DNA of 64,000 bases from a virus. Taxonomy: Duplodnaviria > Caudoviricetes. Location: the IMG/VR virus record IMGVR_UViG_643692013_000008, positions 43,573 to 107,572 of that record. One strand, given 5' to 3'. The notes beneath the pieces are model-generated. The model ran no database searches. It was not told where the DNA came from and saw nothing but the letters and a program-made list of their open reading frames with translations. Position 1 is the first letter of the stretch. Each line of letters starts with the position of its first letter. A program made the translations under genes and the position numbers. Shown piece by piece: positions 11,117 through 27,385 of the stretch.

Positions 11117-11134
11117 ACTACTGAACAGAGCCTC

Positions 11135-11204: not shown

Positions 11205-11217
11205 CTGAGACACCATC

Positions 11218-12816
11218 ATGACCGATCCCAACACCACCACGCCCGCGACTCTCCGAGCCGATGCGCTCGATCTGCTTCGCGAGATCGCCGCGCGCAAGCG
11301 ATACGACCCGAACGTCCCGGCGCCTTGGGGCAACAACTCCGGTTGGAATACGATCATCTTGAAGAGCGAACTGCTCGCCCGTGTCGATGCGCTGCTCGAC
11401 GCGACTGCTGCCGCCCCAGCCGTCGAGCCGATCCGGCTCGTCCACGTCGCCTTGGCCGAGGATGGTGGGAATCTTCGCTGGATGACGGGACGCAAGCCGC
11501 GGGACTGCGAGCTGTACATGATGCCTGACGGCGGCCGGGCGCCGGCTGTCGTGTACGCCACTCGCTCCGCCCCGGTCGCCGAGGCCGAGCCGATCGATAA
11601 GCTTGAGCCGGCATTGATCCTCACCGGAGCGCAGTTGCTCGAAGCGCTGGATCTCGTCGCGCCGGATCGCACGGCTGACCAGTTCGAAAGCGAGGTGTCG
11701 TTCCAATACGGGAATGGCCATTCCGGCAAGGGCATGTACTGCTGGATCACCGACTATCCCGACGAAGGCGCGTCGCTGCTCGACGGCTCGACCGTCGCCG
11801 CTCAGGCTGTCGCCGCTGATGGGGATGCGTTGAAAGAAGCCGTGACGCGCACGATCGATACGATCAGACGGCAGCTTGAATTGATTTTTGAACGCGCCCC
11901 GGGAAACTTCCTCGACAAGGTGCCAGTCGTGCAGTCGTTGACCGCACACAAACATCGCTTGGAGAAGGCCCTCGCGATCACCGTGCCGCGCGCAGCAGTA
12001 TCGCCGGCCACGGCTGAGACCTCCACGGGGATGCCCGACGAGGTGCGCGAGTCGCTGATGGACAGCCAATACCTCGCGGGCGTCAAAGCGGGCTGGAATG
12101 CTGCGAACGCAGCCGATCCGAATGCGGCGCTGGAGAAGATTCACGCCAGCCGCGCCGGCTACTTGCGGCCCCTGCGTGATTGGCAGAAAGCCGGACGCCC
12201 CGGCGTTCCCGCGACGCCGGCCACGGCCGACGAGCGGGCGGCGCTGCTCCAATGGGCCACGGAGCGATGGGATGCGGAAGTGAAGCACCGGCCGCTCATC
12301 AACGTCCATCGCCGCTCCCTTGACGATACGTGGCGTCAGGTCATCCGGCATTGCGGCGGCGATGACGTGTCGCTGCTCGGGCCGCGACACGATGCCCTGC
12401 TCGCGGCAAATCCGATCAATACGACCGAGCGCGATCCCGCGTTCATCGATAACGACCTCGATTTCGAGCCGGATGCGCAGCACGCCGTCGCGGACATGGC
12501 GAACATCGGCTACGCGCTGATGCAGACGATCGAGCGCATGGTGCCGGGCTACTGCTGGAACGAATCGCCGACCGAAATCGTGAGCGACCTCCTCAACGAA
12601 CGCGACGAGGCCCGCGCATCGCAGGCCCCCGCACCGGCCGATACGCGCGACGTAGCGGCGTTCATCCGTGAAGTAGCTACGCAGAAGCCGGAGAAGCCAG
12701 ATCACTGGAGCCCGTGTGGTCAGTGCCAGCGCAATGCAGAGCGCGCTCAGGATTTGCTCGATGCCGCCTGCGCACAGAGTATCGACCTGCCGGACAGCGA
12801 AGGGGGTGAAGCGTGA
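11218..12816 (+). CDS. Mosaic multi-cassette early protein (Ea-region type)
   Basis: Short unrelated domains separated by Ala/Pro linkers shared with 21250-23160. Confidence 0.8.
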   Translation: MTDPNTTTPATLRADALDLLREIAARKRYDPNVPAPWGNNSGWNTIILKSELLARVDALLDATAAAPAVEPIRLVHVALAEDGGNLRWMTGRKPRDCELYMMPDGGRAPAVVYATRSAPVAEAEPIDKLEPALILTGAQLLEALDLVAPDRTADQFESEVSFQYGNGHSGKGMYCWITDYPDEGASLLDGSTVAAQAVAADGDALKEAVTRTIDTIRRQLELIFERAPGNFLDKVPVVQSLTAHKHRLEKALAITVPRAAVSPATAETSTGMPDEVRESLMDSQYLAGVKAGWNAANAADPNAALEKIHASRAGYLRPLRDWQKAGRPGVPATPATADERAALLQWATERWDAEVKHRPLINVHRRSLDDTWRQVIRHCGGDDVSLLGPRHDALLAANPINTTERDPAFIDNDLDFEPDAQHAVADMANIGYALMQTIERMVPGYCWNESPTEIVSDLLNERDEARASQAPAPADTRDVAAFIREVATQKPEKPDHWSPCGQCQRNAERAQDLLDAACAQSIDLPDSEGGEA

Positions 12817-13082
12817 TCCCTCCGATGACCGATCCGCTGGGGCGGCACTGGCGGCATCCGTCGCCCCAAGAAATCCTCGTTGACGACGAGCACGCCGTTA
12901 TGTCGCGCTTGACCTACGACGAGCTGCTCGAGTACTCCACCACCATCCCCGCCGGGGTCTATCCGGGAAAGATGTGGAAGGCCGTCTACGGCGACCGCGC
13001 CTTTCTCCGCTGGTTCGGCATCGTCGACGGCCGGACCGACGTGTGCTCGAACAACCAGCGCTTGATCCTGCTCTGCGACTAG
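12813..13082 (+). CDS. Phage hypothetical protein
   Basis: GTGA coupling; DPLGRHW..P...EYSTTIP.GVY.GKMWK. Confidence 0.75.
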   Translation: MIPPMTDPLGRHWRHPSPQEILVDDEHAVMSRLTYDELLEYSTTIPAGVYPGKMWKAVYGDRAFLRWFGIVDGRTDVCSNNQRLILLCD

Positions 13083-13091
13083 GAGGACCTC

Positions 13092-13484
13092 ATGAACGAC
13101 CAACTCATCGAGGCGCGCAAGTTGATCGCACACGCCAGCGAGTACGCGATCTCGGCTTTGGGAAACGACTGGCACGAGCGCGCGACCGCCCTGCTCGCCC
13201 GGCCTGCGCCCGCTATCTCGGAAAGTCCCGAGGCGCACGACGAGGCAACACCAGCCTGGATGACGTGCGAATCGCGGCGCCCGTTCGTAGTCAACAGCCT
13301 GCGCTCACGTGCTGAAGACCTGCGCGCCGCCGAGAAACGCTGCCGGAACGCTTATCGCAAGGACTTCATGGGCTCCCCGGCGTGCTATCTCGCAGATGCC
13401 TACGGCGAAGCGGCCACGGCGCTGGAGGCGCGGCTCGCCGCGATCGACTCTGTCCTCGGAGGAGGTAGCCGTGCGGACCGCTGA
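13092..13484 (+). CDS. Modular hypothetical protein with APAISES linker
   Basis: AGGAGG RBS; linker shared with 20238-20930. Confidence 0.75.
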   Translation: MNDQLIEARKLIAHASEYAISALGNDWHERATALLARPAPAISESPEAHDEATPAWMTCESRRPFVVNSLRSRAEDLRAAEKRCRNAYRKDFMGSPACYLADAYGEAATALEARLAAIDSVLGGGSRADR

Positions 13485-13581
13485 AGTAAATGCCGCGCTA
13501 CGCGCTTCCGCTCACCCGAATGGGTGCTCCCATTCGAAGTGGCCGACGCCACCGGCGCGCGACCCGGATGCTGGTCCGACG

Positions 13582-13809
13582 TTAAAAAAGGCCTTCGTCC
13601 TGCTTCTTCTGCTCTGGCACCAAGTTGATCGTAATCGCTGCGTCAGTCGCGTACTTCCCGACAAGCGTTTCAACTGCCGAGGTCGGCTGAATAGCCAACT
13701 GCGTTATCGCCGCCTGGTATTTGTGCCCTGTCAAATCGCTTATCGCCTTCGCCAGCGCTTGTTCAAGGTCTTCAATCGAAACCGACTTCAATGGATTCAC
13801 ATTGGACAT
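13582..13809 (-). CDS. Antisense accessory (moron) protein, 75 aa
   Basis: AGGAG RBS, lower GC, protein-like composition. Confidence 0.65.
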   Translation of the reverse strand: MSNVNPLKSVSIEDLEQALAKAISDLTGHKYQAAITQLAIQPTSAVETLVGKYATDAAITINLVPEQKKQDEGLF

Positions 13810-13844
13810 GAACTGCTCCTCCAGAAATTTCGGGACATCCTAAC

Positions 13845-14789
13845 ATGAGCGAGAACAGCAAAATCGAGTGGTGCGACCACACATTCAACCCGTGGATCGG
13901 TTGCACGAAGATTTCACCCGGCTGCGATAACTGCTACGCCGAGGCGATGATGGACAAGAGAATGCACAAGGTGAAGTGGGGAGCGTCAGCACTGCGCGCC
14001 CGCACGACCCCCGAGAACTGGCGGCTGCCGGTGCGGTGGAACGCGCGACACGACGAGTTCATGGCCGCTCACGGGCGCCGGCAGCGCGTCTTCTGCTCAT
14101 CGCTTGCCGATGTATTCGATAACCGCGTGCCGTCCTCCTGGCGTCGCGACCTTTTCGCGCTGATCAAGGCCACCCCGAATCTCGACTGGCTCCTTCTGAC
14201 GAAGAGAACCGGCAACGCGCGCGAAATGCTCATCGGCAGCCCGCTATCGCCCATCCCGGACAACGTCTGGCTCGGCGCGACGATCGTCAACCAGGAGGAA
14301 GCTGACCGCGATATCCCGAAGCTCCTCGCGGTGCCAGCGCGCGTGCGCTTCCTGTCGATCGAGCCGATGCTCGGGCCGATCGATCTCAACCAGGCGCTCC
14401 CGCCGTTTCATTGTGACACCTGCGACGCCGACTATGGCGCGCTGTCGGCCCACGCATCTGGAACGCCGATTGGCATCGACTGGGTGATCGCTGGCGGCGA
14501 AAGCGGCCACCGCGCGCGGCCCGCCCATCCCGACTGGTTCCGGTCGCTGCGCGACCAATGCGCCGAGGCGCACGTGGCGTTCTTCTTCAAGCAGTGGGGG
14601 CAATGGGCGCCAGGTTCGAACTGGCCTGAGGACGTCCCGATCCCAAGCGGCGAGCGAGCTTACCTTGACGGGCAGGAGACGGACGACAACGAATCGGTTT
14701 GGAGCGTCGGCAAGCGCGCTGCCGGCCGGCTGCTCGACGGCCGCACGCATGACGAATTCCCCGTGATCGAGGATACGAAATGCGCTTAG
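13845..14789 (+). CDS. DUF5131 / Gp37Gp68 family protein (radical-SAM-like three-Cys motif)
   Basis: SKIEWCDHTFNPWIGCTKISPGCDNCYA; LLTKR; GGESG; FFKQWG. Confidence 0.9.
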   Translation: MSENSKIEWCDHTFNPWIGCTKISPGCDNCYAEAMMDKRMHKVKWGASALRARTTPENWRLPVRWNARHDEFMAAHGRRQRVFCSSLADVFDNRVPSSWRRDLFALIKATPNLDWLLLTKRTGNAREMLIGSPLSPIPDNVWLGATIVNQEEADRDIPKLLAVPARVRFLSIEPMLGPIDLNQALPPFHCDTCDADYGALSAHASGTPIGIDWVIAGGESGHRARPAHPDWFRSLRDQCAEAHVAFFFKQWGQWAPGSNWPEDVPIPSGERAYLDGQETDDNESVWSVGKRAAGRLLDGRTHDEFPVIEDTKCA

Positions 14790-15361
14790 CTATTTGCGAC
14801 CACCGCCGCCTCGATTTCCAGAGTTTCGCTGGCCCCAACCAATTCCCTGGCCAGCTCTTTCAGCTTATCGCCCCAGCCAACGTGAAATTCCGCACTGGGC
14901 ATCGGGACAATTCCCGCGCATCCCGCGATGGCTGTCTGGACCCTCAGCAACGCGCCCACGGTATTAGGGGTAGGCGCCTGTTCTGGCCTAATCAGGCTCA
15001 CGATATTCATCGCGGCTCGCACGGCATTTACTTGGTCGGGATGCGGCCACTTCAAGCCATTGGTGGCAGGAAGCCGCTGAATCTGTTCATCCAACGTGAG
15101 CACGACGTCTCTGCACTGCGACACGAGGACCGCCACGCATTGGACTCGCTCATGCAGTTCATCACGACGCAGCTTCCTGTCGCGATCCGCCTGTTGGGAC
15201 GCGATCTTAGTCGCCGCGACGATGGCGCCGATCGAGCCCACCGCCTGAACCCATGCCGCCCAGTCCGAACTTTGCGCAGGTGGCCAGCGCAACACTGCCG
15301 TGACGAGTATCCCTGCTGCAAACGCCCCTATGAACATTGCCAGACCGGAGTAGCGACCCAT
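14786..15361 (-). CDS. Antisense membrane accessory protein
   Basis: Two N-terminal TM segments with WAAWVQAVGS; GGAG RBS before ATG 15361. Confidence 0.7.
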   Translation of the reverse strand: MGRYSGLAMFIGAFAAGILVTAVLRWPPAQSSDWAAWVQAVGSIGAIVAATKIASQQADRDRKLRRDELHERVQCVAVLVSQCRDVVLTLDEQIQRLPATNGLKWPHPDQVNAVRAAMNIVSLIRPEQAPTPNTVGALLRVQTAIAGCAGIVPMPSAEFHVGWGDKLKELARELVGASETLEIEAAVVANS

Positions 15362-15998
15362 GCGTGAACTCCCGATATTGTTTTCTGCGCCGATGGTACG
15401 GGCGATATCGCAGGGTCGCAAGTCGCAGACGCGCCGCCCGATGACCCCGCAACCGTATGACGACTACCGCCGGCTCGCCTGGATGTTCGCGAAGAACCGC
15501 GGAAGCTGGGGACCGCCCGGTGGTGCTCCCGATCCGGCATGGCTGGCTCGCTGCCCCTACGGCGGACCGGACGACCAGCTCTGGGTCCGCGAGACGTTCG
15601 TGGCATTCGGCCGCTGGGAGACGCGCTTCAGCGTGAAGAAAGGCCGGGACCAATGGCACTTCGTCGACATGACGCTCGACACCGGCCGGCAGTACCGCTA
15701 CGGCGGCGACTTGCCGAACGCGCAGCGTGCGGGCGCGACGCCGACCTGGTGGCGCCGGCCGGCGATCTTCATGCCACGCGCCGCCTCGCGCACGCAGCTC
15801 GAGGTGGTCCGCACCAGGATCGAACGCGTGCAGCAGATCAGCGAGGCCGATGCGATCGCGGAAGGAATGAGCACCGGCGACATCAATCCGGTGGGCTCAT
15901 ACGCCGAACTCTGGGATGGCCTCAACGCGGAGCGCGGCCTAGGTTGGAAGGCGAACCCGTGGGTGTGGGTGGTGGAATTTCGGAGGATGGAAGGATGA
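15360..15998 (+). CDS. ASCH/PUA-like phage protein
   Basis: PILFSAPMVRAI..GRKSQTRR...WVRETF...FMPR.ASR...NPWVWVVEF. Confidence 0.85.
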   Translation: MRELPILFSAPMVRAISQGRKSQTRRPMTPQPYDDYRRLAWMFAKNRGSWGPPGGAPDPAWLARCPYGGPDDQLWVRETFVAFGRWETRFSVKKGRDQWHFVDMTLDTGRQYRYGGDLPNAQRAGATPTWWRRPAIFMPRAASRTQLEVVRTRIERVQQISEADAIAEGMSTGDINPVGSYAELWDGLNAERGLGWKANPWVWVVEFRRMEG

Positions 15999-16243
15999 GC
16001 ACGGGACTGATGACGCCTGAGGACCTGGTGAAGGTCACCCACAAGAAACGATACAGCGCGCAAGCGAAGTGGTTCAAGGCGCAGTACGGCGTCGACGTGC
16101 CGCAGCGGACCGACGGCAGCATCGTGCTGACGTGGGAGACCCTCGACGCTCTCGCCGAGGCCAAGCTCGGGATTCGGGCTGTCGACCGGCGGATCGATGC
16201 GTCGCCCGATCGCCCACCGATCCACGTGCTGCGAAAAGCATGA
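15995..16243 (+). CDS. xis: Excisionase (DUF4224-like)
   Basis: LMTPEDLVKVT.KKRYSAQ..W....RTDG; directly before int. Confidence 0.75.
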   Translation: MSTGLMTPEDLVKVTHKKRYSAQAKWFKAQYGVDVPQRTDGSIVLTWETLDALAEAKLGIRAVDRRIDASPDRPPIHVLRKA

Positions 16244-17376
16244 CGCCCCGCCGCCGAAAGAGCCCAGATGGGCTCCCGAGCCGCGTCTACATTCGCGACG
16301 GGTCGTTCTATTGGGTCCGGCCGGACAGCAACAAGTGGATCCGGCTATGCCGCGTCAGCGAGGGCGACGCGCTGATGCTCGAGCGCCTGGCCGCTGAGAA
16401 GCGCCAGTTCACGGCGGCCGCCGGTGGCGGCAACCTGCCCAGGCTGGTCGGCGAATTCATGGACACGCACAAGATGCGCTACGCCCCATCCTTCCGCGAC
16501 GAGTGGGTGCGTCGCGGCGAGGCGGTAATCGAATCGCTCTGCGAGTGGAACGTCGAGCGCGTCGACGCTGGAGCCGTCGAGGACTTCCTCATGAAGAACT
16601 GGGCGGACCGGCTGCCAATGCAGCGGGCGATGAAAGCGTGGCTGTCGACGTTCTTCAACTGGATCATCCGCCGGAAGAAACTGATGCAGGTGAACCCCTG
16701 CCGCGAGGTCATCGTCAAGAAGCCGAAGGCCCGCGACGTCTACATCCCGGACCGGGATTTCGTCGCCATTCGCGATGCGCTGATGACCTACACCTACACG
16801 AAGAACGCCGGCACGCCGAAGGAGAAGACCTTGGTCGGTAAGGTACAGACGGGGCCGATGATGCAGTGCTTCATCGACCTCTGCTACCTGACCTGCCAGC
16901 GCTCGACGGACATCCGGCTGCTGCGGTGGGACCAGATCGACAGGGATGCCGGCGTTATCCACTTCGTGCCGACGAAGACGGAGGATTCGAGCGGCGAGGC
17001 CGTGGACTGGCCCCTGACGCCCGATATCGAGGCGGTGCTGGCGCGCGCGAAGCTGCTGGACCCGGCTTTCGGGCAGACCTACGTTATCCGGGACAGGAAA
17101 GGCAAACCGAAGACGGATCAGTCGTGCCGCGACGCGTGGGACGGGGCGATCGATCGCGTCGCCAAGCTCGACCCGAGCATCGCGGGTAAACCCTACACGA
17201 TCAAGGATATTCGCGCGAAGGCGCTGACGGACGCGAAGCGCGCCGGGTATGCAATCGAGGATCTGAGGGTGGCCGGGGCGCACACGGATACTGCGACGAC
17301 CGAGACCTACCTGAAGGCGCGGGAGGTACCCCGCTCCAAGGTCGTCCTGCACCTTCCGATGCCGAAATCGGCATAA
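16240..17376 (+). CDS. int: Tyrosine integrase, prophage A
   Basis: CQRSTDI, KDIR in the HxxR position, AHTD, TYL; next to att. Confidence 0.9.
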   Translation: MTPRRRKSPDGLPSRVYIRDGSFYWVRPDSNKWIRLCRVSEGDALMLERLAAEKRQFTAAAGGGNLPRLVGEFMDTHKMRYAPSFRDEWVRRGEAVIESLCEWNVERVDAGAVEDFLMKNWADRLPMQRAMKAWLSTFFNWIIRRKKLMQVNPCREVIVKKPKARDVYIPDRDFVAIRDALMTYTYTKNAGTPKEKTLVGKVQTGPMMQCFIDLCYLTCQRSTDIRLLRWDQIDRDAGVIHFVPTKTEDSSGEAVDWPLTPDIEAVLARAKLLDPAFGQTYVIRDRKGKPKTDQSCRDAWDGAIDRVAKLDPSIAGKPYTIKDIRAKALTDAKRAGYAIEDLRVAGAHTDTATTETYLKAREVPRSKVVLHLPMPKSA

Positions 17377-17387
17377 CCTGGGCGGCG

Positions 17388-17420
17388 ATATTGGAGAACC
17401 TCCAATATGGTCTCCAATAT
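17388..17420. repeat. Probable integrase arm-type sites, prophage A
   Basis: CTCCAATAT three times: inverted 17388-17397, direct 17399-17408 and 17411-17420. Confidence 0.6.
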
Positions 17421-17442
17421 GCACAAAAAATAGGCACAAACG

Positions 17443-17476
17443 AAAAACCCGCGTCAGCCTTAACTGACGCGGGTTT
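17443..17476 (-). terminator. Intrinsic terminator downstream of the tRNA 3' end
   Basis: AAACCCGCGTCAG/CTGACGCGGGTTT 13-bp stem followed by a U tract on the minus strand. Confidence 0.85.
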
Positions 17477-17481
17477 GATAC

Positions 17482-17528
<47 letters not shown>

Positions 17529-17547
17529 TGAATTGCATCACCAGCAC

Positions 17548-17641
17548 AATCAGATACTTAGGCCATTTTGTCTAACTTGATGCCTAATTCTTAATCAGCT
17601 TCTGGTGCGGCTTTGCGATGGGATTTCACCCCAAGTTAGAC
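17548..17641. promoter_or_regulatory. Prophage B att arm: IHF site plus inverted arm-type sites
   Basis: AATCAGATACTTA 17548-17560 fits WATCARNNNNTTR; GTCTAACTTG 17570-17579 / CAAGTTAGAC 17632-17641. Confidence 0.65.
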
Positions 17642-17649
17642 GACAAAAA

Positions 17650-18756
17650 TCAACTGGTGCGACGCATCGGAACGGGTGTCACACGCTCCACTTCGCGAGC
17701 TTTGGTGTAGTGCGCGGTCATTTCCGCCGTGGTGTGTCCTGCGAGTGCCTGCGCCGCTCTCGCACCCTCGAGCCGCTGCTTGTCGGTAAGGGCTTTCGCT
17801 CTCAGGTCATGGAAATGCATACCGACGAGAAACCGAGGATCCGGCTCCGTGCCCTTCGCAGCGCACTCGCCCTCATAGGACTTGCGCGCGCGCTTAATCG
17901 CCCGTTTCCATGCTGTCTGTGCGCCGCTGTAGGTATAGCGCGCGCCGTCCTGCGTGCAGATGATCGGTCCGATTGCTTTCACCTTGCCGGCCTTCGCCGC
18001 GTCGAGCGTGGCGCGCAAGTCCGGCGTCAATTGAATCAGGAGGCGCACGCCACTGCTGTTTACCGTTTTCGAGGGATGGAAGAAGAGTCCGTCGTTGCTG
18101 ACATCTTGCCAGTTCAGCGCAAGCAGATCGCCGATGCGTTGTGCGGTCTGATAGGCCAGGTCGATAAGGCAGACGATCGTCGTTCCGGATGCGGTCGGGC
18201 GTCCGTCCAACCCAACGAGCGCGGCAGCGCGGACAGCCTCCAGCTCCATGTCCGTGATGTAGCGGTCGCGCGCCTTCTCCTCGGCGCCGGCGACCTCGCG
18301 CGCCGGATTGCGATCGCGCAGCCCCTTGCGCACGGCGTGCGCGAAGATCAGCGACAGGAGCGCCTTGTATTTGTTGCTGGTGTTCGGTTTCGTCGAGAAG
18401 TGCTTGTCGAGGAACCGGGCGATGTCGGCCGGGCGCACGTCCTCGACTGTCCACTGCGGCCCGAACTCCGATTTGACGAATGTCGCCATGCGCCGGTATT
18501 CCTCGCGCGTCTTCAGCGCATACTTCGGGAGCTTTACCAGCAGCCAGTCGTCGATGAGCGCAGGCATCGTGTCGGCAATACCTCGTTCATCCGCCTCGCG
18601 GTTGAACTTTGCGAGTTGCTCATAGAGGCGCGTGAGCCCATCGGTCGTACTGCAAAGGCGGTGCCACTTCCGGCGCATATCGACGAAGTACCACGAACCG
18701 TGCTTCTCGTAGACGCGCGCGGGCAGCGGTGACGCCTTCTTCCGTCGCCCGATCAT
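17650..18756 (-). CDS. int: Tyrosine integrase, prophage B
   Basis: AQRIGDL, FHDLRAK, GHT, HYT catalytic set. Confidence 0.93.
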   Translation of the reverse strand: MIGRRKKASPLPARVYEKHGSWYFVDMRRKWHRLCSTTDGLTRLYEQLAKFNREADERGIADTMPALIDDWLLVKLPKYALKTREEYRRMATFVKSEFGPQWTVEDVRPADIARFLDKHFSTKPNTSNKYKALLSLIFAHAVRKGLRDRNPAREVAGAEEKARDRYITDMELEAVRAAALVGLDGRPTASGTTIVCLIDLAYQTAQRIGDLLALNWQDVSNDGLFFHPSKTVNSSGVRLLIQLTPDLRATLDAAKAGKVKAIGPIICTQDGARYTYSGAQTAWKRAIKRARKSYEGECAAKGTEPDPRFLVGMHFHDLRAKALTDKQRLEGARAAQALAGHTTAEMTAHYTKAREVERVTPVPMRRTS

Positions 18757-18984
18757 CTACGCCGCCTTCATGTCGGAAGTGAGTTGCGGACGGCGCCGGC
18801 TTCGCTCCTGATTCTTCGGGATGCTGATGCCTGCGATATGGTGTCGCCACACGCGCACGCTGCCGTCGGGCCGGCGATCTGCCGGGATGCCAGCGCGCAT
18901 CAGGGCCTGCAATTGCCGGCACGGCTGGCGGTAGCCTGTTGCCTCGACGATCTCCTGCTCGCTGAGTGTGAGAGATTCGCTCAC
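18757..18984 (-). CDS. xis: Excisionase (DUF4224-like)
   Basis: LSEQEIVEATGYRQPCRQ..L...GI...RPDG. Confidence 0.8.
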   Translation of the reverse strand: MSESLTLSEQEIVEATGYRQPCRQLQALMRAGIPADRRPDGSVRVWRHHIAGISIPKNQERSRRRPQLTSDMKAA

Positions 18985-19172
18985 TTCCCGTCCTCCGTAT
19001 TAGTGCGCGCCCGGCGTTCATAGCTCGCCCAATACGCTATTGCTTCGTCTATCGCTGGCTCGGTGTGGCCGAGTTGCGCCGCGCGTTCCCTGCATGCCTT
19101 GAGGGTCCTGATATTTTCGTTTCGGGACACGTTCACCAAAGCCTTCAGCGCGTTAAATACTTCTTCGTTCAC
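18981..19172 (-). CDS. Hypothetical protein
   Basis: Coupled on both sides. Confidence 0.7.
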   Translation of the reverse strand: MNEEVFNALKALVNVSRNENIRTLKACRERAAQLGHTEPAIDEAIAYWASYERRARTNTEDGK

Positions 19173-19537
19173 GCTTCCCCTCCGGTATCAGTAGTGCGTG
19201 CGATCTCGGCAGCAGCGCGGGTGATGGCGCGGCGCAGTGCTTCGGCCGAGTCGCCGGGCTTTTCAACGATGAACACGCGCTCGTCAGGCTCACGATGAGC
19301 GGTGACGCTGACGTAGCCCGCGTTGATGCTGATATCGATGTCCATGCGCAGCTTCACCGCCAGCCGCAGCGCGTCGCCGTCGTCGGTGAGAGGGTTCCAT
19401 CCTTCCGCAATGCCGGGCGTCTTTGAGTGCTTCGGTGAAAGAAGCATGTCACGCCAAAGCGGGTCATCCAATCGTGATCGGAGTATCTCGATCTCCGCCG
19501 CCTTCGCCGCCAGTTCCAACAGTTCTTTGTCGGTCAC
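19169..19537 (-). CDS. Phage protein
   Basis: TDKELLELAAKAA...WNPLTDDGDALRLAV...RRAITRAAA, common lambdoid early family. Confidence 0.8.
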   Translation of the reverse strand: MTDKELLELAAKAAEIEILRSRLDDPLWRDMLLSPKHSKTPGIAEGWNPLTDDGDALRLAVKLRMDIDISINAGYVSVTAHREPDERVFIVEKPGDSAEALRRAITRAAAEIARTTDTGGEA

Positions 19538-20241
19538 GATCTCTCTCCCTCGACGCGCTTGAACTCGACGACCCATACCCAGGGGTTGGCTTCCCAGAGC
19601 CCCGGACCCTTGAGGTTCCAGTTCTCGCCGCCGTGAAGTCGGTTGATAAAGTTGGCGAACGCATAGCGCGCGGAGCCCATACAACGGGTATGGCTGGTGG
19701 CGTCGCCCATGTGCCAGCCTTTGCGTTGAGTGCCGCGGACGACGGGATGGAAGGTCCGGCCGCCATCGACGCTGATGGAGCCTTTCGGCGGCTCGATACC
19801 GAAGTCGGTGAAAACTGCACCTTCGGCGATCGCATCTCCCTCGCTGATGTCATGCAACCGCTCGACGCGCACGCCGGTGATTTCGAGCGTGATGCGCGAA
19901 AGGGTGCGTGGCATGTGGATCGAGGGCGTCCACCCCGCACCCCTGGCATCGCCACTCGGATCAGAATCGGCGCGATAGATCGTATGAGCTCGACGGCAAG
20001 GGATGCTGACTGATGCTGCCCAGCAATAATCGGCCGGCTCATGAATGAACGCTTCGCGCACCCACAGGCGGTCGCCGGGCTCGCCATGCGGACATCCCTG
20101 CTGGTTCGGGAAGCGGCGCAGAATCGCGTCGAGGTTATCTTTCCCGGCGAATTCTTTCGCGACGCGCCGCGTCTGAGTCTTGCGCCCGTCGAGAATGGCG
20201 CGCACCATCGGTGCGCTGAAAATGATCGGCCGCTCTTTCAC
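19534..20241 (-). CDS. ASCH/PUA-like phage protein (homolog of 15360-15998)
   Basis: PIIFSAPMVRAILDGRKTQTRR...NPWVWVVEF. Confidence 0.85.
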   Translation of the reverse strand: MKERPIIFSAPMVRAILDGRKTQTRRVAKEFAGKDNLDAILRRFPNQQGCPHGEPGDRLWVREAFIHEPADYCWAASVSIPCRRAHTIYRADSDPSGDARGAGWTPSIHMPRTLSRITLEITGVRVERLHDISEGDAIAEGAVFTDFGIEPPKGSISVDGGRTFHPVVRGTQRKGWHMGDATSHTRCMGSARYAFANFINRLHGGENWNLKGPGLWEANPWVWVVEFKRVEGERS

Positions 20242-20930
20242 GATTGATTCTCCTTGCGTGCGGCGTCGATCACCCGATCGAGAATTGCCTCGGGCGTCTC
20301 GTCCTGAACCTTGAATACCTCGACCTGCCGGTCGAACGCGATCGACATAGCGAGATCCATGCGGTCGTCATCGGGCACGTCGGATAGGATCAGCCGATAC
20401 CGCGCAGCATCCCGCGCATCCTCGCTTTCCGAGATAGCCGGCGCAGCCTTGAGGGCGTCGTCGGTAGGATCAACCGGAAGCGGCATCCAGTGCGTGGGTA
20501 CTTGCTCGCGTTCGAGTCGATCCATGATTCCGGGGAGAGCAGTTCCGAACCAGTCCTTCTGGAACAGCGTTTCCTCATCGATATCATCGCATTCAGCCTC
20601 CGATGCCCATCGATCAAACGACGTATGCATGATCAGCAGCACGCCGCAGTCCTCACGCCAGCCGAGCAACTCCGTTTCCTTCGGCGCCGTCTCGATCGGC
20701 TGCCACCGGTCGGCAGAGATAGCCGGCGCAGGCGAGACGCGGCGGTTCCATCGCTCGACTGCCGCCTCCGGGGATGCGCTGGGAATTTGTTCAATAGCGC
20801 ATGTGCCTCCAAGGTTCAATGTATTGCGGCACTTCACGCCCCACCAATGCCTCTTGTCTATGGTTTGCTCCAAGACAACGGCGCCCCCGCAGAACGGGCA
20901 CGGCAGCAGTTCGCTCAGCTTGTCGCTCAT
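20238..20930 (-). CDS. Lar-like restriction-alleviation domain fused to DUF551-like cassette
   Basis: LLPCPFCGG...AVERWNRR; WQPIETAPK...THWMPLP. Confidence 0.8.
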   Translation of the reverse strand: MSDKLSELLPCPFCGGAVVLEQTIDKRHWWGVKCRNTLNLGGTCAIEQIPSASPEAAVERWNRRVSPAPAISADRWQPIETAPKETELLGWREDCGVLLIMHTSFDRWASEAECDDIDEETLFQKDWFGTALPGIMDRLEREQVPTHWMPLPVDPTDDALKAAPAISESEDARDAARYRLILSDVPDDDRMDLAMSIAFDRQVEVFKVQDETPEAILDRVIDAARKENQS

Positions 20931-21253
20931 CGGGTGTCTCCCTGAGATGTGACGATCGTTTCCGATTTGTGCTCGGTGATCGTCTGCTTGCCTTGGCGCC
21001 GCGATTCGGTCCAGTTGCGCTCGGTCGTCACGGTGCCGTCAGGGCAGCGGGTGAAGTAGTGCCAATTGCTATCGGCCCGGAACGCGTAGACCTTGCAGCC
21101 GTCGGCCTCGCGGATGACGTGGGGCTTTACGTCGGCTTCCGCCTGCGCATGTTCGCGCTCCATGGCACGCTTTGCCCCGTCCGAGAAAACACCCCAATAG
21201 GTGCAGCCGCCGATGGCCGACAGCAGAAGGGCGAATATGAGAAGGTTCTTCAC
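20927..21253 (-). CDS. Membrane/lipoprotein, DUF4884-like
   Basis: Hydrophobic N-terminus IGGC; DGCKVYAF....HYFTRC. Confidence 0.65.
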   Translation of the reverse strand: MKNLLIFALLLSAIGGCTYWGVFSDGAKRAMEREHAQAEADVKPHVIREADGCKVYAFRADSNWHYFTRCPDGTVTTERNWTESRRQGKQTITEHKSETIVTSQGDTR

Positions 21254-23160
21254 GCTTCGCCTCCCTTCCCACCCTGCGCGCCCTGAGACTCTTTGGCCGC
21301 ATGGGCGAGCGCCGGCAACGTATCGACGATCCCCTTGTCGGAGAAGAAGCCGGATGCGAACACGGCGTTGTCATACGTGACCGGACGACGCCCGAATTCC
21401 AACGATGACAGGAAGGCCGGCGAAACTCGCATAGCCGTCGCCATGTCCATCAGCGTTGTGCCGGCAACGATCCGAAGCGCCCGCACGAGCATCCCGTAAG
21501 GCGTCAGGGGATTCTCGATGCTCGCCACCGCCTCTCCCGCATCAGCAGGGGCGCTTCGGGGCAAATCACGGATGACTTGCTTTATCAGCGCACCTACGGC
21601 GGCCACGCTGCCGAACTCGATGTAGCCCGCTGCGTTCTCCCTGCCGCCGACGTGCTTGATGCGCTCGCCAAGGTTCATGCCGGCCGTCGGGCTCGGCTCG
21701 CGCGCCTCGGCCGGTGCGGAGGCCTGCGCGCGATAAAGCTCGACTTCCATGCGGAGCACTTCGGCGAGTCGTTTAACCAGTTCGATCTTGTTGAGCGGAT
21801 CGTCGGGATGTACGGGATCGTCGCCGCGCAGAGTCACGCACACATCTGCAAGCGTTTCGCTCAGACGGCGGATCACGTAGGCATCCTCCGACTCTTCGCC
21901 CTCGTTCGCTTGAGGTGCGGCGGCCTGCGATGTGCGCGCAACGTTGAGCACAACCTCGTCTTCCACGGCGCGGGCGAACTGCCGCCAGCCCCATTGCTTC
22001 ATGAAGCTGCCGAGGCCGCCCGGCATCGATTCGGCGATCGCGTCGATGTCGGCGTCGTCAAGCCTCGCCGCCCGCTCGTCGGACGTGGCCGGCTCACTGG
22101 CAACGGGGAGCGTCCAATCGTCACTGAGATGCGAACCAGTCAGCGGCACGCATCCGGCCTGCCGGAAGCAATCCCCTTTGCTGCCGCATTCGTGGTGGCA
22201 CTTGCCGCCGTCAATGCAATAGCCTGCATCTCGCAAGCAAGAGTGCAGCCATTTGACATGCGCTCGAACCTCGTCGGGCTCGGCCGTGGCCGGCTCGCCT
22301 TCGCCAGATTCGAGGTAGAAGCATCCCAGTTCGTTGCATGCCTGCGCCGTGCTTGATCCGCAGCGCGTGCATTTGCTCTCGGACGTGGCCGGCGATACTG
22401 CTGCGCGCTCGTCACCCATCAGCGCGGCCGTCGCGGTGACGAGGTGATAAGCGGGATCGCTGACGGCAATCTTGCCTTCAGAGCTCGCCTGATACCACGC
22501 GATCAGCAGCGACCAGATATCCGATATGAACTGGCGGGGCGTCATGCCGTCCGGGCAGCCCAACTCTTCGCACGCTTCGACGATTCCTTGCAGCTCGTCC
22601 GTGTCCGCCCCATCAGCGGCGACAGCCTGAGCGGCTATTTCCGGCACCGGCCAATCGCGAGTCGGGCAGTCTAAGGCTTGCTGGATAGTGCTGGTTGCAT
22701 CTTGCCCTTCGCCCAATGGCACAGGTCCGAAATCGCGGATCGATGCCAATCTGACCGGCGCGGCGACAGTCTGAGCGTCAAATCCCCTGGCCGAAATGAC
22801 CGCCTCGGATTGGCCCGATTCCTTGCTGGGATTGGGTTCCGTCCCGGCCGAAATCTCGTCGACCGGGGCGGCGGGAGAGGCGGCGAGCATGGCTGCGTAG
22901 ATGCCGAGCGGCGTGCAGTTACGGAACGACGTGCCTTTCGGAAGCCCGTCCCACAAGCACTCAAGCATGTCTCGCGTCGGTACGATCGGAACCAGCTTCC
23001 ACCCCTCCGGTGCGGGCACTGCTGCTCGCGGGGAGGTGAGAAGGGCGCGAAGTGCATCGCCGTACTCGTCCATCGCGAGAGGCGTCAGCACGCTGATTGC
23101 CATGTTGATTGCTGCACGCTGCTCGTCCGTCAGCGCGGCTGCGGTGGTGTTGTTCGTCAT
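21250..23160 (-). CDS. Mosaic multi-cassette early protein with terminal XRE HTH cassette
   Basis: GWKLVP..PT..ML motif; linkers shared with 11218-12816; TLMDMATAMRVSPAFLSSLEFG HTH. Confidence 0.8.
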   Translation of the reverse strand: MTNNTTAAALTDEQRAAINMAISVLTPLAMDEYGDALRALLTSPRAAVPAPEGWKLVPIVPTRDMLECLWDGLPKGTSFRNCTPLGIYAAMLAASPAAPVDEISAGTEPNPSKESGQSEAVISARGFDAQTVAAPVRLASIRDFGPVPLGEGQDATSTIQQALDCPTRDWPVPEIAAQAVAADGADTDELQGIVEACEELGCPDGMTPRQFISDIWSLLIAWYQASSEGKIAVSDPAYHLVTATAALMGDERAAVSPATSESKCTRCGSSTAQACNELGCFYLESGEGEPATAEPDEVRAHVKWLHSCLRDAGYCIDGGKCHHECGSKGDCFRQAGCVPLTGSHLSDDWTLPVASEPATSDERAARLDDADIDAIAESMPGGLGSFMKQWGWRQFARAVEDEVVLNVARTSQAAAPQANEGEESEDAYVIRRLSETLADVCVTLRGDDPVHPDDPLNKIELVKRLAEVLRMEVELYRAQASAPAEAREPSPTAGMNLGERIKHVGGRENAAGYIEFGSVAAVGALIKQVIRDLPRSAPADAGEAVASIENPLTPYGMLVRALRIVAGTTLMDMATAMRVSPAFLSSLEFGRRPVTYDNAVFASGFFSDKGIVDTLPALAHAAKESQGAQGGKGGEA

Positions 23161-23167
23161 GGTGTCC

Positions 23168-24783: not shown

Positions 24784-24908
24784 GGTCAAATCCAGTAGGT
24801 CAGTTGCATCGAAGGGCGCGCGGCTCGATGCACGCGGCTTTCGATGAAGCCGGAAAAAGACCGGCCCGTACTGGCGCCGGCTCAAAGACACGCTACGGGG
24901 GTAGCGAT

Positions 24909-26578: not shown

Positions 26579-27385
26579 TCAGTCCTGAAAGGCCCATTGG
26601 GGCAAAGAGATGAGGGAAATATCGCGCGAGTAGCCGGGCCACTCGTTAGCTGCCGAGCAGCGTGCGTAGGTGGCGAGGTTGCGTCGGTAGTCCGCGCGGC
26701 CTTGCTCGAGCGAAATCTGGTCGAGCATCACGGCACTGGCCGCGTAGGGCCATTCCGTCTCGACTGCGACGAAAATGAACGCAGCGACGTCCAGGCCGGA
26801 CGCAGCGGCATATCCGTCCGTGTAGTACGCCGCCTGGACGTGATAGCGCTTGCGTGCGGCCTGGCGACGGAATTCGTCGGGGTCAGCGCTACTGAACGTC
26901 TTCACGTCGAGCAGCACCACGGACGTGTTGTCGAGGTCATGCGCGAAGTCGGGCCGGCAACGGCACTCGACACCCGTCTCGGGATCGGTCCAGAATGCCG
27001 ACACTTCAGCGTGGCCGCGGGACAGTGCATCGCGCACGTCAGGTAGCGCGCGAACCGAATCCGATTGACGCCATGCGACGTCGGCTTGGTCCTGCTGGAT
27101 CGCAATGCGGTCCGGATGAGCTTCGACGAACTCCGTCCACACCTTCGTGTTCCGGCGCACGCTCGGGCCGATGACGTAGCGCTTGCCGAACTCGTCAGGC
27201 TCGAGGATCGCGCAATGCGCAAGCTGGCCCTCCAGTTGCCCAGACTTCGTCTCGCGCGCCGGCCGGTTGGGATCGCGGTGCCGCGCATAGAAATGGAACG
27301 GAGACACGTCGATGTCATCCAGCTGCGACTTGCTCACCGGCGCCATGGCGTGATACGCCTCGATCGACAGGTTGTATTCGAGCAT
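26579..27385 (-). CDS. RecE/ExoVIII-like PD-(D/E)XK exonuclease (DUF3799)
   Basis: YH....SKSQL; CRCRPD; DVKT; YHVQAAYY. Confidence 0.88.
   Translation of the reverse strand: MLEYNLSIEAYHAMAPVSKSQLDDIDVSPFHFYARHRDPNRPARETKSGQLEGQLAHCAILEPDEFGKRYVIGPSVRRNTKVWTEFVEAHPDRIAIQQDQADVAWRQSDSVRALPDVRDALSRGHAEVSAFWTDPETGVECRCRPDFAHDLDNTSVVLLDVKTFSSADPDEFRRQAARKRYHVQAAYYTDGYAAASGLDVAAFIFVAVETEWPYAASAVMLDQISLEQGRADYRRNLATYARCSAANEWPGYSRDISLISLPQWAFQD

What the first reader, a model, noticed from the sequence alone, without database searches (positions are those of the whole stretch)
11218..23160. Ordered in-frame linkers shared by two unrelated prophages bracket swappable domain cassettes
Seen: genes 11218-12816(+) and 21250-23160(-) show no similarity in their domains, yet share short DNA linkers in the same order and frame. 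L1 GCCGCTCAGGCTGTCGCCGCTGATGGGG is 28/28 (11797-11824 vs 22608-22635; AAQAVAADG). L2 is 25/25 (11988-12012 vs 22384-22408; RAAVSPAT). L3 is 27/28 (12216-12243 vs 22066-22093; PATxDERAA). L4 at about 12613-12650 matches two sites in the right gene (21/23 near 21914-21936 and 28/31 near 21698-21728), as if one cassette had been gained or lost between duplicated linkers. The core GCCGGCCACG recurs five times. Identity includes synonymous positions, which points to selection or exchange at DNA level. Established: lambdoid Ea-region genes are mosaic, and ERF/RecT-type annealases use short homologies. Inference: a slot-addressed, intragenic cassette-shuffling system that builds polyproteins from a shared pool of 40-120 aa modules, possibly for counter-defence.
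Basis: partly seen in the sequence, partly recalled or inferred. Interest (0 to 1): 0.85.

Follow-up and report, generated by a model that had tools for sequence, protein, structure and literature searches.

The report
Address-tagged domain shuffling in phage gene
Two neighbouring Burkholderia prophages each carry a long early gene made of small unrelated protein domains joined by the same ordered series of short linkers; the linker DNA is almost invariant in over 170 relatives, so the linkers probably act as fixed crossover points where phages swap domain cassettes in frame.

Summary
Genes 11218-12816(+) and 21250-23160(-) share only short in-frame DNA islands of 15-28 exact bases, all in the same order.

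The pattern is general. Among 223 Burkholderia phage and prophage relatives, 170 of 173 proteins with at least two linkers keep one order: (h)-g-a-b-c-d-e-f. Each slot between two linkers holds 29-39 mutually unrelated module families. A given module stays in its slot (0.86 against 0.34 for shuffled labels), and neighbouring slots re-assort freely.

Conservation is at the DNA level:
- Linker DNA is nearly invariant across 17 sequenced genes, rare codons included. Codon identity is 0.88-1.00, against 0.31-0.37 expected from codon usage.
- Synonymous changes (44) are no commoner than non-synonymous ones (63).
- The exact-match islands have medians of 20-27 nt. That is close to the minimal pairing segment reported for Red-beta-type annealases. 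Both prophages encode such machinery (Erf; a RecE-like exonuclease).

Best reading: homologous recombination at address-like linkers shuffles domain cassettes in a gene of the exo-xis region. What the protein does is unknown; several early or counter-defence functions in one protein is a guess. The closest known analogue is the conserved-motif/variable-segment layout of the T-even gp38 adhesin. I found no prior description of this family. The scan had flagged this same stretch once before, in another reading of the same genome.

The parts
11218..12816 (+). Gene A (P0001, 532 aa): mosaic early gene of the left prophage, architecture N-a-b-c-(d+e)-C
   Evidence: ORF and translation. Each 40-125 aa piece matches a different phage. 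Linker map.
11797..11824 (+). Linker a in gene A (AAQAVAADG; GCCGCTCAGGCTGTCGCCGCTGATGGG+G)
   Evidence: 28/28 identical to gene B. Identical or one base different in most of the 17 sequenced family genes.
11989..12012 (+). Linker b in gene A (RAAVSPAT; CGCGCAGCAGTATCGCCGGCCACG)
   Evidence: 25-nt exact match to gene B. 13 of 18 instances are identical at the DNA level, including the rare codons GCA GCA GTA.
12217..12243 (+). Linker c in gene A (PATADERAA; CCGGCCACGGCCGACGAGCGGGCGGCG)
   Evidence: It shares the core CCGGCCACGGCCGA with linker b.
12613..12651 (+). Fused d+e linker in gene A (RASQAPAPADTRD), i.e. an empty d-e slot
   Evidence: It matches both the d and the e linker of gene B (I9 and I6). 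A fused d+e linker occurs in 39 of 223 family proteins.
12799..12816 (+). Conserved gene end (..GGGGGTGAAGCGTGA): Shine-Dalgarno-like run plus a GTGA stop/start overlap with the next gene
   Evidence: Sequence read. The ORF 12813-13082 starts at the GTG. 94 of 223 proteins end in GG..EA.
21250..23160 (-). Gene B (P0002, 636 aa): mosaic early gene of the right prophage, architecture N-h-a-b-(PATAE)-c-d-e-f-C, with a C-terminal HTH module
23014..23049 (-). Linker h in gene B (ALLTSPRAAVPAP)
   Evidence: Found without prior assumption as the commonest sequence at homology breakpoints away from the seven known linkers. Present in 83 of 223 proteins. pLDDT is below 50 at residues 43-49.
22608..22635 (-). 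Linker a in gene B
22384..22407 (-). Linker b in gene B
   Evidence: pLDDT is below 50 at residues 249-263.
22279..22294 (-). Extra internal b/c-core linker (EPATAE) that splits two Cys-rich modules in the b-c slot of gene B
   Evidence: 15-nt exact match to linker c of gene A. pLDDT is below 50 at residues 281-295. The two flanking modules hit different phages: phi1026b gp43 and BcepSaruman/KPP10.
22066..22092 (-). Linker c in gene B (PATSDERAA)
21913..21936 (-). Linker d in gene B (RTSQAAAP)
   Evidence: pLDDT is below 50 at residues 411-421.
21694..21728 (-). Linker e in gene B (AQASAPAEAREP)
   Evidence: The e core is identical at the DNA level in 15 of 15 instances.
21526..21549 (-). Linker f in gene B (PADAGEAV; CCTGCTGATGCGGGAGAGGCGGTG)
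   Evidence: pLDDT is below 50 at residues 534-549.
3654..4556 (+). erf-type single-strand annealing protein gene of the left prophage (candidate crossover enzyme)
   Evidence: Pfam ERF hit at window 3888-4334, E 3.8e-14, above the cut-off. ORF listed.
26579..27607 (-). RecE-like (exonuclease VIII C-domain, DUF3799) exonuclease of the right prophage
   Evidence: NCBIfam PRK09709, E 3e-49 over the C-terminal domain, though below the whole-protein cut-off. Pfam DUF3799, E 1.8e-28.
25526..26575 (-). Unannotated 349-aa gene directly downstream of the exonuclease; possible annealase partner (inferred from position only)
   Evidence: phrog_3657, unknown function. No Pfam or NCBIfam hit.
16069..17376 (+). 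Integrase of the left prophage (end of the arm that carries gene A)
   Evidence: phrog_1 integrase.
17650..18984 (-). Integrase (17650-18756) and excisionase (18757-18984) of the right prophage
   Evidence: phrog_1 and phrog_1266.

Best explanation
Genes A and B are two alleles of one hyper-mosaic gene family of Burkholderia temperate phages (the phi1026b gp43 / 'gp38' type). The gene lies in the exo-xis part of the early-left arm.

The product is a string of five to ten small, mutually unrelated domains. Between the domains lies a fixed, ordered series of at least eight different short linkers: h, g, a, b, c, d, e and f. The N-terminus is also conserved, and so is the gene end, which doubles as the ribosome-binding and start site of the next gene.

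Each linker has its own 21-28 nt DNA sequence, kept almost unchanged throughout the phage pool. When two such phages or prophages meet in one cell, homologous recombination can cross over inside a shared linker. The most likely enzymes are the phages' own annealase/exonuclease pairs, which work on about 25 nt of identity.

Because every linker is different and in the same codon phase, each exchange keeps domain order and reading frame. It swaps everything on one side of the crossover. Repeated exchange turns each slot into a library of interchangeable cassettes. Where two linker types share a core (b/c and d/e), unequal exchange deletes or duplicates a slot.

Shown here: the linkers, their order, slot fidelity, free re-assortment, breakpoints at linkers, and conservation at the DNA level.

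Inferred: the enzyme, whether the layout is selected for shuffling, and the protein's role. The role is probably several early host-directed or counter-defence activities in one polypeptide.
For: **Order.** 170 of 173 family proteins with at least two linkers keep the order g-a-b-c-d-e-f. The MAFFT consensus of 85-150 proteins consists only of the linkers plus the two termini.

**Cassette diversity.** Each slot holds many unrelated module clusters: ab 39 clusters in 100 segments, ga 32 in 74, bc 29 in 62, cd 38 in 71, ef 36 in 82. hhalign comparisons between the larger clusters of each slot (6-10 per slot) give median probabilities of 1.2% or less.

**Slot fidelity.** 0.86-0.87 of module copies carry their cluster's usual flanking linker. 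Shuffled labels give 0.33-0.34, with a maximum of 0.38.

**Re-assortment.** Of modules seen at least twice, 12-14 of 13-17 per pair of adjacent slots have more than one partner in the adjacent slot. Slot identities between relatives are either about 100% or about 20%.

**Breakpoints.** 57% of internal ends of HSPs with at least 90% identity lie within 6 residues of a linker, against 16% at random. Most of the rest led to a further linker, h.

**DNA-level conservation.**
- In 17 genes from independent assemblies, linker codon identity is 0.88-1.00, against 0.31-0.37 expected from codon usage. Rare codons (GCT, GCA, GTA, GAT, GGA) are retained.
- Synonymous changes number 44 and non-synonymous changes 63 in 1048 linker codons.
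- 120 unrelated genomic occurrences of the linker-a peptide pattern mostly differ at 3-7 of the 8 free positions. The two closest, with 1-2 differences, are chance matches in non-coding frames.

**Island size.** Median exact-match runs are 20-27 nt. The minimal efficient pairing segment is quoted as 23-27 bp for Red-beta and 31-34 bp for RecA. Erf and RecT recombine short or diverged sequences better than RecA (PMC3945230).

**Enzymes present.** The left prophage has erf. The right prophage has a RecE-like exonuclease. A YqaJ exonuclease lies next to a relative.

**Slot loss and gain.** Fused b+c occurs in 11 proteins and fused d+e in 39. These are exactly the linker pairs that share 14-15 nt cores.

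**Linkers lie between domains.** In the AlphaFold model of P0002, six of the eight linker positions (the seven named linkers plus the internal PATAE site) fall in segments with pLDDT below 50 between helical blocks.
Against: - No recombination event was observed directly. The read-level test could not be run.
- Near-identity of the linkers could be kept up partly by other constraints, such as flexible Pro/Ala-rich linker peptides or translation. It could also simply reflect very recent spread.
- The 223 proteins were collected by similarity to A and B, so the sample is enriched for proteins sharing their modules and linkers. Related proteins also share labels, so the shuffle controls overstate independence.
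- Modules at 50-95% amino-acid identity already show codon identity of 0.73-0.83 at identical residues. The contrast with the linkers is therefore real but not extreme.
- Islands of 20-27 nt are at the lower limit for efficient homologous exchange.
- Linker e is not in a low-confidence segment of the model.
- The protein's function is untested. Pfam recognises only a minority of modules.
Confidence: 0.75

Rival explanations
1. The linkers are conserved for what they do in the protein or during translation, for example as flexible Pro/Ala-rich spacers, protease cleavage sites of a polyprotein, or pause sites. On this view recombination at them is an incidental by-product, not the reason for their form.
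For: The peptides (AAPAAPV, SPATAE, SQAAAPAEAREP) look like ordinary flexible inter-domain linkers. Most lie in low-confidence, unstructured parts of the model. Linkers a, b, f and g contain rare codons, with GC3 of 0.50-0.62 against 0.72 for the genes.
Against: Peptide-level selection predicts many synonymous and few non-synonymous changes. The observed counts are 44 synonymous and 63 non-synonymous in 1048 codons. The same peptide elsewhere uses quite different codons. Linkers c, d and e have no rare codons, so pausing is not a general explanation. This idea does not explain the checkerboard of identities or the breakpoints at linkers. It is compatible with the main explanation rather than a replacement for it.
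Confidence: 0.15
2. Vertical descent from one ancestral multi-domain gene. Single domains were replaced by illegitimate (non-homologous) recombination, and the linkers are merely the parts that happened to survive.
For: All members share the N-terminus, the gene end and the position in the genome.
Against: Illegitimate events would not land repeatedly within a few residues of the same 21-28 nt islands. They would not keep the frame in more than 200 genes. They would not keep linker DNA nearly identical while every flanking segment is unrelated. Free re-assortment of adjacent slots requires many exchanges at the same points.
Confidence: 0.05
3. A site-specific recombinase, either shufflon- or invertase-like or one of the integrases, recognises the linkers as its sites.
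For: Integrases lie a few genes downstream in both arms. In this window the two genes are inverted relative to each other.
Against: At least eight different sequences without dyad symmetry would all have to be recognised. Each occurs once per gene in direct order, not as inverted repeats within a locus. No invertase or Rci-type gene was seen beside the family genes in ten further loci. Linker 'dialects' differ gradually between host clades, as expected for homology-dependent exchange.
Confidence: 0.03
4. The matches between A and B are chance or compositional matches in GC-rich, low-complexity coding sequence.
For: The genome has 64% G+C. The 10-mer GCCGGCCACG also occurs elsewhere in the contig.
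Against: Codon-shuffled controls never exceed 15 nt and share no 16-mers, whereas the real genes share a 28-nt word and 25 16-mers. The same sequences recur in order in more than 170 proteins.
Confidence: 0

Closest known systems
[quoted passage not shown] 2011, PMC3157838; Tetart et al. 1996 and 1998 as cited there)
   Same: A phage protein with a strictly conserved, ordered (syntenic) set of short motifs. Between them lie variable segments, each with a restricted palette. [quoted passage not shown]
   Different: In gp38 the motifs form the structural core of one domain and the variable parts are short receptor-binding loops of a virion protein. Here the conserved parts are flexible spacers. 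The variable units are whole, unrelated 30-170 aa domains, with dozens of families per slot. The gene is an early, non-structural one. There are at least eight addresses, each with its own DNA sequence.
Susskind-Botstein modular theory of phage evolution, with short conserved 'linker' or boundary sequences between interchangeable modules (from my own knowledge, not read here); relaxed homologous recombination by Rad52-like annealases (De Paepe et al. 2014, PMC3945230)
   Same: Exchange of functionally analogous but unrelated modules through short flanking homologies. Phage annealases act on short or diverged identity, and small intragenic pieces of about 100 bp are exchanged.
   Different: There the modules are genes or gene blocks, and conserved junctions have mostly proved elusive. 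Here the junctions are explicit, numerous, lie inside one reading frame, and are conserved to the base.
[quoted passage not shown] 2020, PMC7093339; PMC10834534)
   Same: Same genomic position: the largest gene between the recombination genes and xis-int. The proteins are very diverse, with different N- and C-terminal domains and a common terminal motif (K/RGE there, GGEA here). Two of 85 family members carry a Pfam Ead_Ea22 module.
   Different: Ea22 has about three domains, and no ordered linker series is described for it. Neither A nor B matches Ead_Ea22. The prolysogenic role of Ea22 cannot be carried over.
Polyvalent proteins of phages and conjugative elements (Iyer et al. 2017, PMC5512222)
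   Same: Many domains of disparate kind fused in one polypeptide of a mobile element, thought to act together early in infection.
   Different: Those proteins are mostly very large and packaged in the virion or transferred with the DNA. They are built around ArdC, MuF, DarB and RNAP domains and encoded with late or transfer genes. The paper never mentions linkers or shuffling (0 occurrences). The present genes are 300-900 aa, lie in the early-left arm, and consist mostly of unknown small domains.
Cassette systems with a conserved demarcation motif: CdiA (VENN) and Rhs polymorphic toxins, Neisseria pilE/pilS minicassettes (from my own knowledge, not read here)
   Same: Conserved coding DNA next to variable cassettes serves as the homology for cassette replacement.
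   Different: Toxins have a single variable end. The pilin system works by gene conversion from silent copies within one genome, and its variable parts are variants of one fold. Here several independent slots each hold unrelated folds, and the exchange is between phages.

Membership tests
Burkholderia phage gp43/gp38-type mosaic early proteins (family defined here) | Ordered linker series (h)-g-a-b-c-d-e-f in one reading frame | tested here: met
   A = a-b-c-(d+e); B = h-a-b-c-d-e-f. 170 of 173 relatives keep the order.
Burkholderia phage gp43/gp38-type mosaic early proteins (family defined here) | Position in the early-left arm, downstream of recombination and methyltransferase genes and a few genes upstream of xis/int | tested here: met
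   Window. Relatives lie next to DNA methylases, ParB, YqaJ, Lar/DUF551 and integrases.
Burkholderia phage gp43/gp38-type mosaic early proteins (family defined here) | Conserved gene end (GG..EA plus a GTGA overlap with the next gene) | tested here: met
   Present in 94 of 223 proteins.
Polyvalent proteins (Iyer et al. 2017) | Fusion of several domains with disparate activities | tested here: inconclusive
   There are many unrelated modules. Only a few can be assigned: HTH, VRR-NUC, DUF3850/ASCH, dATP/dGTP pyrophosphohydrolase, UPF0175, DnaJ-type Zn finger. In A and B themselves only a weak HTH is found.
Polyvalent proteins (Iyer et al. 2017) | Encoded with packaging/late or transfer genes, delivered with the DNA; marker domains such as ArdC-N, MuF, DarB, N4 RNAP | tested here: not met
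   The genes lie in the early-left arm beside int/xis. None of these domains was found by Pfam.
T-even gp38-type adhesins | Glycine-rich motifs forming one specificity domain at the tail-fibre tip | tested here: not met
   There are no glycine-rich motifs. The gene is not in the tail region, which lies at about 38-62 kb of the window. The resemblance is in the logic of the layout only.
Lambda Ea22 / Ead family (Pfam PF13935) | Ead_Ea22 domain | tested here: not met
   No hit in P0001 or P0002 at E up to 1. Present as one module in 2 of 85 relatives.
Lambda Ea22 / Ead family (Pfam PF13935) | Location between exo-type recombination genes and xis-int | tested here: met
   Left arm: erf 3654-4556 ... 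gene A ... int 16069-17376. Right arm: recE-like 26579-27607 ... gene B ... xis/int 17650-18984.
Shufflon / invertase switching systems | Inverted copies of one recombination site within a locus, plus a dedicated Rci/Hin-type recombinase | tested here: not met
   Each linker occurs once per gene in direct order, and there are eight different sequences. No such recombinase was called in the neighbourhoods.
Diversity-generating retroelement targets | Template/variable repeat pair with adenine-specific changes and a nearby reverse transcriptase | tested here: not met
   No template copy of any cassette was found in the 12.4-kb region 11000-23400 scanned for repeats. The variable parts are unrelated sequences, not point-mutated repeats. 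Only one relative (L198) has an RVT_1 gene nearby.

The most novel reading that the evidence does not exclude
The linkers may be a maintained 'address code'. On this reading, Burkholderia temperate phages keep a shared set of at least eight distinct recombination addresses of about 25 nt inside one early gene. Any two phages that meet can then exchange single protein domains in frame, catalysed by phage annealases. This would be a prokaryotic, intron-free analogue of phase-compatible exon shuffling. It would generate a combinatorial repertoire of multi-domain early (counter-defence or host-takeover) proteins. Linker 'dialects' would define which phage populations can trade with each other.
Probability: 0.45. 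Interest if true: 0.85.

Novelty: new variant of a known kind. Interest (0 to 1): 0.75.

Why it matters
The idea that phages swap modules through short conserved linker sequences dates from about 1980, but explicit linkers have rarely been found. In this family they are explicit, numerous, ordered and conserved to the base, and they lie inside a single reading frame. That makes the idea directly testable: recode one linker, cross two phages, and read the junctions.

The family is also a natural example of combinatorial domain shuffling without introns. It is a large catalogue of small, independently folding phage domains with boundaries already marked, most of them of unknown function and some plausibly anti-defence. 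The conserved linkers can serve as primers or probes to harvest these cassettes from Burkholderia phage populations. The clade-specific linker dialects give a way to map which phages exchange genes with which.

Tried and rejected
- **Species-wide survey.** None of the 80 listed was a Burkholderia genome, and the two closest matches checked lie in non-coding frames. I used it only as an empirical null for codon choice.
- **IMG/VR.** The linker-a pattern gave only six family genes. The N-terminal domain is widespread in other phages but brought in only three more family genes.
- **Literature.** Searches for a prior description found nothing on this family. The terms tried were Burkholderia phage plus linker/mosaic/multidomain; phi1026b gp43; modular theory plus intragenic; and early genes plus recombinase. 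The library lacks many subscription-journal papers, for example the older Burkholderia phage genome papers.
- **Internal translation starts as a general explanation of the linkers.** Rejected: only linker f has a Shine-Dalgarno-like run plus GTG.
- **Rare-codon pausing as a general explanation.** Rejected: linkers c, d and e have GC3 of 0.86-1.0.
- **My first composition-based gene call.** It wrongly placed a minus-strand ORF at 3561-5507. The Pfam ERF hit shows the real gene is on the plus strand.
- **Pfam on the 150-protein alignment.** This exceeded the size limit and was repeated on 85 proteins.

Full report
**1. The observation**

The two ORFs exist as described: 11218-12816(+) gives P0001 (532 aa) and 21250-23160(-) gives P0002 (636 aa).
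- 28/28 at 11797-11824 vs 22608-22635
- 32 nt at 94% at 11988-12019 vs 22377-22408
- 33 nt at 91% at 12216-12248 vs 22061-22093
- 31 nt at 90% at 12620-12650 vs 21698-21728
- 31 nt at 84% at 12605-12635 vs 21914-21944

All matches are co-linear and in the same codon phase. The longest shared exact word is 28 nt and there are 25 shared 16-mers. In 300 codon-shuffled pairs the longest word never exceeded 15 nt and no 16-mer was shared. BLASTP between the proteins finds nothing except the linkers.

**2. Context**

The record is a 107.6-kb provirus contig, and the window is its last 64 kb. Two prophage arms meet tail to tail.
- Left arm: erf (3654-4556), DNA methyltransferase (8713-10623), gene A, a phrog_874 gene (15360-15998), integrase (16069-17376).
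- Right arm, mirrored: CI-like repressor (30209-30934), RecE-like exonuclease (26579-27607), an unannotated partner gene (25526-26575), methyltransferases (23173-24891), gene B, a Lar-like gene (20238-20930), a phrog_874 gene (19534-20241), xis and int (17650-18984).

A and B therefore occupy the same slot of two arms with the same layout, between the recombination genes and xis/int. [quoted passage not shown] The prophages are thus not 'unrelated' in organisation, although their DNA is mostly dissimilar.

**3. Each piece of A and B has its own relatives**

tblastn against sequenced phages shows that each 40-100 aa piece hits a different set of phages.
- In A: residues 132-192 match Burkholderia vB_E192a and Magia and many Acinetobacter and Pseudomonas phages; 342-395 match BcepNY3 gp60; 408-473 match KS10 gp24.
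- In B: 258-297 match phi1026b gp43; 296-352 match BcepSaruman and KPP10-like phages; 378-418 match BgManors32; 539-626 match HTH proteins of Bcep22 and others.

The ends of these hits abut the linkers.

**4. The family**

Two searches of the large protein collection gave 223 proteins. Nearly all are from Burkholderia: gladioli, glumae, plantarii, the pseudomallei/thailandensis group ('gp43', 'gp38') and the cepacia complex. Most share only 7-30% of the query, typically at 50-99% identity. The commonest 6-mers across the first 122 proteins are the linkers themselves:
- ADERAA: 58
- RAAVSPAT: about 49
- PADAGEA: 46
- APAEAREP: about 40
- AQAVAADG: 36-41
- ASQAAAP: 37
- AAPAAPV: 32

Labelling them g, a, b, c, d, e and f, 170 of 173 proteins with at least two linkers keep that order. 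A further linker, h (LLTSPRAAVPAP), emerged without prior assumption from homology breakpoints not explained by the first seven. The MAFFT consensus of 85-150 members consists only of the N-terminus (MTNNTTA), the linkers in order, and the end (QGAQGGKGGEA). That end is the Shine-Dalgarno run plus a GTGA stop/start overlap for the next gene.

**5. Slots hold unrelated cassettes, cassettes keep to their slot, and slots re-assort**

- Cutting all proteins at the linkers and clustering 1025 segments gives 350 clusters. Each slot holds many: ab 39 clusters in 100 segments, ga 32 in 74, bc 29 in 62, cd 38 in 71, ef 36 in 82, f-to-end 33 in 116. Only the N-terminal module is broadly conserved.
- Profile-profile comparison between the larger clusters of each slot (6-10 per slot) gives median hhalign probabilities of 1.2% or less, with 0 of 45 pairs at 80% or above in slots ab and ef. 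The exception is the C-terminal slot, where short alignments of 12-30 columns score high; this probably reflects the shared tail. The cassettes are therefore not diverged versions of one domain.
- 86-87% of module copies carry their cluster's usual flanking linker, against 33-34% after label shuffling (maximum 38% in 1000 shuffles).
- Modules seen at least twice nearly always have more than one partner in the adjacent slot: 13 of 15, 12 of 13, 12 of 13 and 14 of 17.
- Slot-by-slot identities between relatives form a checkerboard of about 100% and about 20%.
- 57% of the internal ends of HSPs with at least 90% identity lie within 6 residues of a linker, against 16% at random.

**6. Conservation is at the DNA level**

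I assembled DNA for 17 family genes: the window's two, IMG/VR proviruses L001, L004-L006 and L008-L010, and eight assemblies reached through the look-up of encoding contigs, L066-L073. For each linker the DNA is almost invariant while both flanks change abruptly. The consensus sequences are:
- g: GACGCCGCTCCCGCCGCCCCGGTC
- a: GCCGCTCAGGCTGTCGCCGCTGATGGG
- b: CGCGCAGCAGTATCGCCGGCCACG
- c: CCGGCCACGGCCGACGAGCGGGCGGCG
- d: CGCGCATCGCAGGCCGCCGCACCGGCC
- e: GCACCGGCCGAGGCGCGCGAGCCG
- f: CCTGCTGATGCGGGAGAGGCGGTG

Pairwise codon identity is 0.88-1.00, against 0.31-0.37 expected from the genes' own codon usage, and rare codons are retained. Homologous modules at 50-95% amino-acid identity show 0.73-0.83. 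In 1048 linker codons there are 44 synonymous and 63 non-synonymous changes. That is not the signature of peptide-level selection, which would leave many synonymous and few non-synonymous differences. As an empirical null, 120 unrelated occurrences of the linker-a peptide pattern in other genomes differ from the Burkholderia DNA at 3-7 of the 8 free positions. The two closest are chance matches in non-coding frames.

Other host clades use slightly different 'dialects': PADERAA, DAPAEARE with GCA in place of GCC, APADAGEA and RAAASPAAE. These appear in phi1026b gp43, a pseudomallei-group prophage and a B. multivorans prophage. Identity within a pool and graded difference between pools is what concerted evolution through frequent exchange would give.

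**7. Mechanism**

Exact-match islands through the linkers have medians of 20-27 nt. De Paepe et al. quote minimal efficient pairing segments of 23-27 bp for Red-beta and 31-34 bp for RecA. They also show that Red-beta, RecT and Erf outperform RecA on short or diverged homologies, and that about 100-bp pieces inside genes are often exchanged (PMC3945230). Both prophages here encode this kind of machinery.

Distinct addresses explain why order and frame are preserved. They also explain why the gene does not collapse through deletion between repeats. Where two addresses share a core, the predicted products are seen. Linkers b and c share CCGGCCACGGCCGA, and linkers d and e share GCCGCCGCACCGGCC. 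Fused b+c occurs in 11 proteins and fused d+e in 39, and slots are also duplicated (bb, cc, dd, ee). Gene A's 'L4' is such a fused d+e linker, while gene B has d and e with a cassette between them.

The enzyme, and whether the layout is selected for evolvability or is a self-reinforcing by-product of recombination, remain inferences.

**8. The protein**

An AlphaFold model of P0002, built with the family alignment, has mean pLDDT 59.6. It shows helical blocks separated by segments with pLDDT below 50 at residues 43-49, 249-263, 281-295, 313-366, 411-421 and 534-549. These correspond to linkers h, b, the internal PATAE, c, d and f. Linker a lies at the end of a long low-confidence stretch, and linker e does not dip. 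This fits a beads-on-a-string protein.

Pfam names only a few cassettes among 85 members: UPF0175, VRR-NUC, HTH, DUF3850/ASCH, DnaJ-type zinc finger, Ead/Ea22, dATP/dGTP pyrophosphohydrolase, AlpA and DUF6197. PHROGs lists the rest as unknown. Neighbours include DNA methyltransferases and Lar-type restriction-alleviation genes. Several early, host-directed or counter-defence functions in one protein is therefore plausible but untested.

**9. Comparison with what is known**

- **T-even gp38** is the nearest analogue in logic. Five conserved glycine-rich motifs in strict synteny separate four hypervariable segments, each with a restricted palette, and exchanges occur at or near the conserved motifs (PMC3157838). 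There, however, the conserved parts are the structural core of one adhesin domain and the variable parts are loops.
- **Polyvalent proteins** (PMC5512222) share the many-domains-in-one theme. They are large, packaged, built from other domains, and described without linkers or shuffling.
- **Ea22** shares the position and the diversity.
- **Botstein's linker idea, polymorphic-toxin demarcation motifs and pilin minicassettes** are further conceptual relatives, cited from my own knowledge.

Five literature searches found no description of this family or of its ordered linkers. The library does not cover many subscription journals. I therefore class the finding as a new variant of a known kind rather than categorically new.

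**10. Limits**

- The protein sample was gathered by similarity to A and B.
- Relatives are not independent.
- No exchange event was observed. The read-level and species-wide searches could not be run.
It agrees with this report but is not independent evidence.

Noticed in passing
window 16069-18984: Two integrase genes face each other tail to tail (16069-17376 + and 17650-18756 -), only 273 bp apart, and no tRNA gene is found anywhere in the window. The two prophages therefore sit side by side at or near one attachment region and were merged into one 107.6-kb 'provirus' record.
   Followed up: partly
window 15360-15998 (+) and 19534-20241 (-): Both arms carry a phrog_874 gene next to the integrase. 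The two genes share diverged DNA similarity (inverted repeats I1 and I2, 73-80% over 45-46 nt), so the arms have some homologous genes besides the linkers.
   Followed up: partly
window 21526-21549 (-), and the same linker in other family genes: Linker f (CCTGCTGATGCGGGAGAGGCGGTG) contains a Shine-Dalgarno-like GGGAGAGG about 5 nt before an in-frame GTG. The C-terminal cassette (an HTH in gene B) might therefore also be translated on its own. None of the other linkers has this feature.
   Followed up: no
window 12799-12816 (+) and 21250-21270 (-): Both mosaic genes end in ..GG(A/G)GG(C/T)GAAGCGTGA. This is a ribosome-binding run plus a GTGA overlap that starts the next gene. The conserved C-terminal peptide (GGEA) is thus really a translational-coupling junction, and may serve as one more crossover point.
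   Followed up: partly
window 25526-26575 (-): A 349-aa protein directly downstream of the RecE-like exonuclease has no Pfam or NCBIfam match (phrog_3657, unknown function). By position it could be an unclassified single-strand annealing protein.
   Followed up: no
L198:1-812 (B. multivorans prophage): A reverse-transcriptase (RVT_1) gene lies about 700 bp upstream of a family member. It was not seen in the other nine loci examined, so it is probably an unrelated retron- or defence-type cargo gene.
   Followed up: no
window 8713-10623 (+): A 636-aa protein combines a phrog_32684 N-terminal part with a C5-methyltransferase-like part (Pfam DNA_methylase, only a weak partial hit). It sits upstream of gene A (about 600 bp away), in the position that methyltransferases occupy next to family members in other loci.
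   Followed up: no
window 20238-20930 (-); L066:3587-4201; L072:4140-4727: Lar-type restriction-alleviation genes, sometimes fused to DUF551, recur one to four genes downstream of the mosaic gene. Lar also occurs as a cassette inside some family members (names given).
   Followed up: partly
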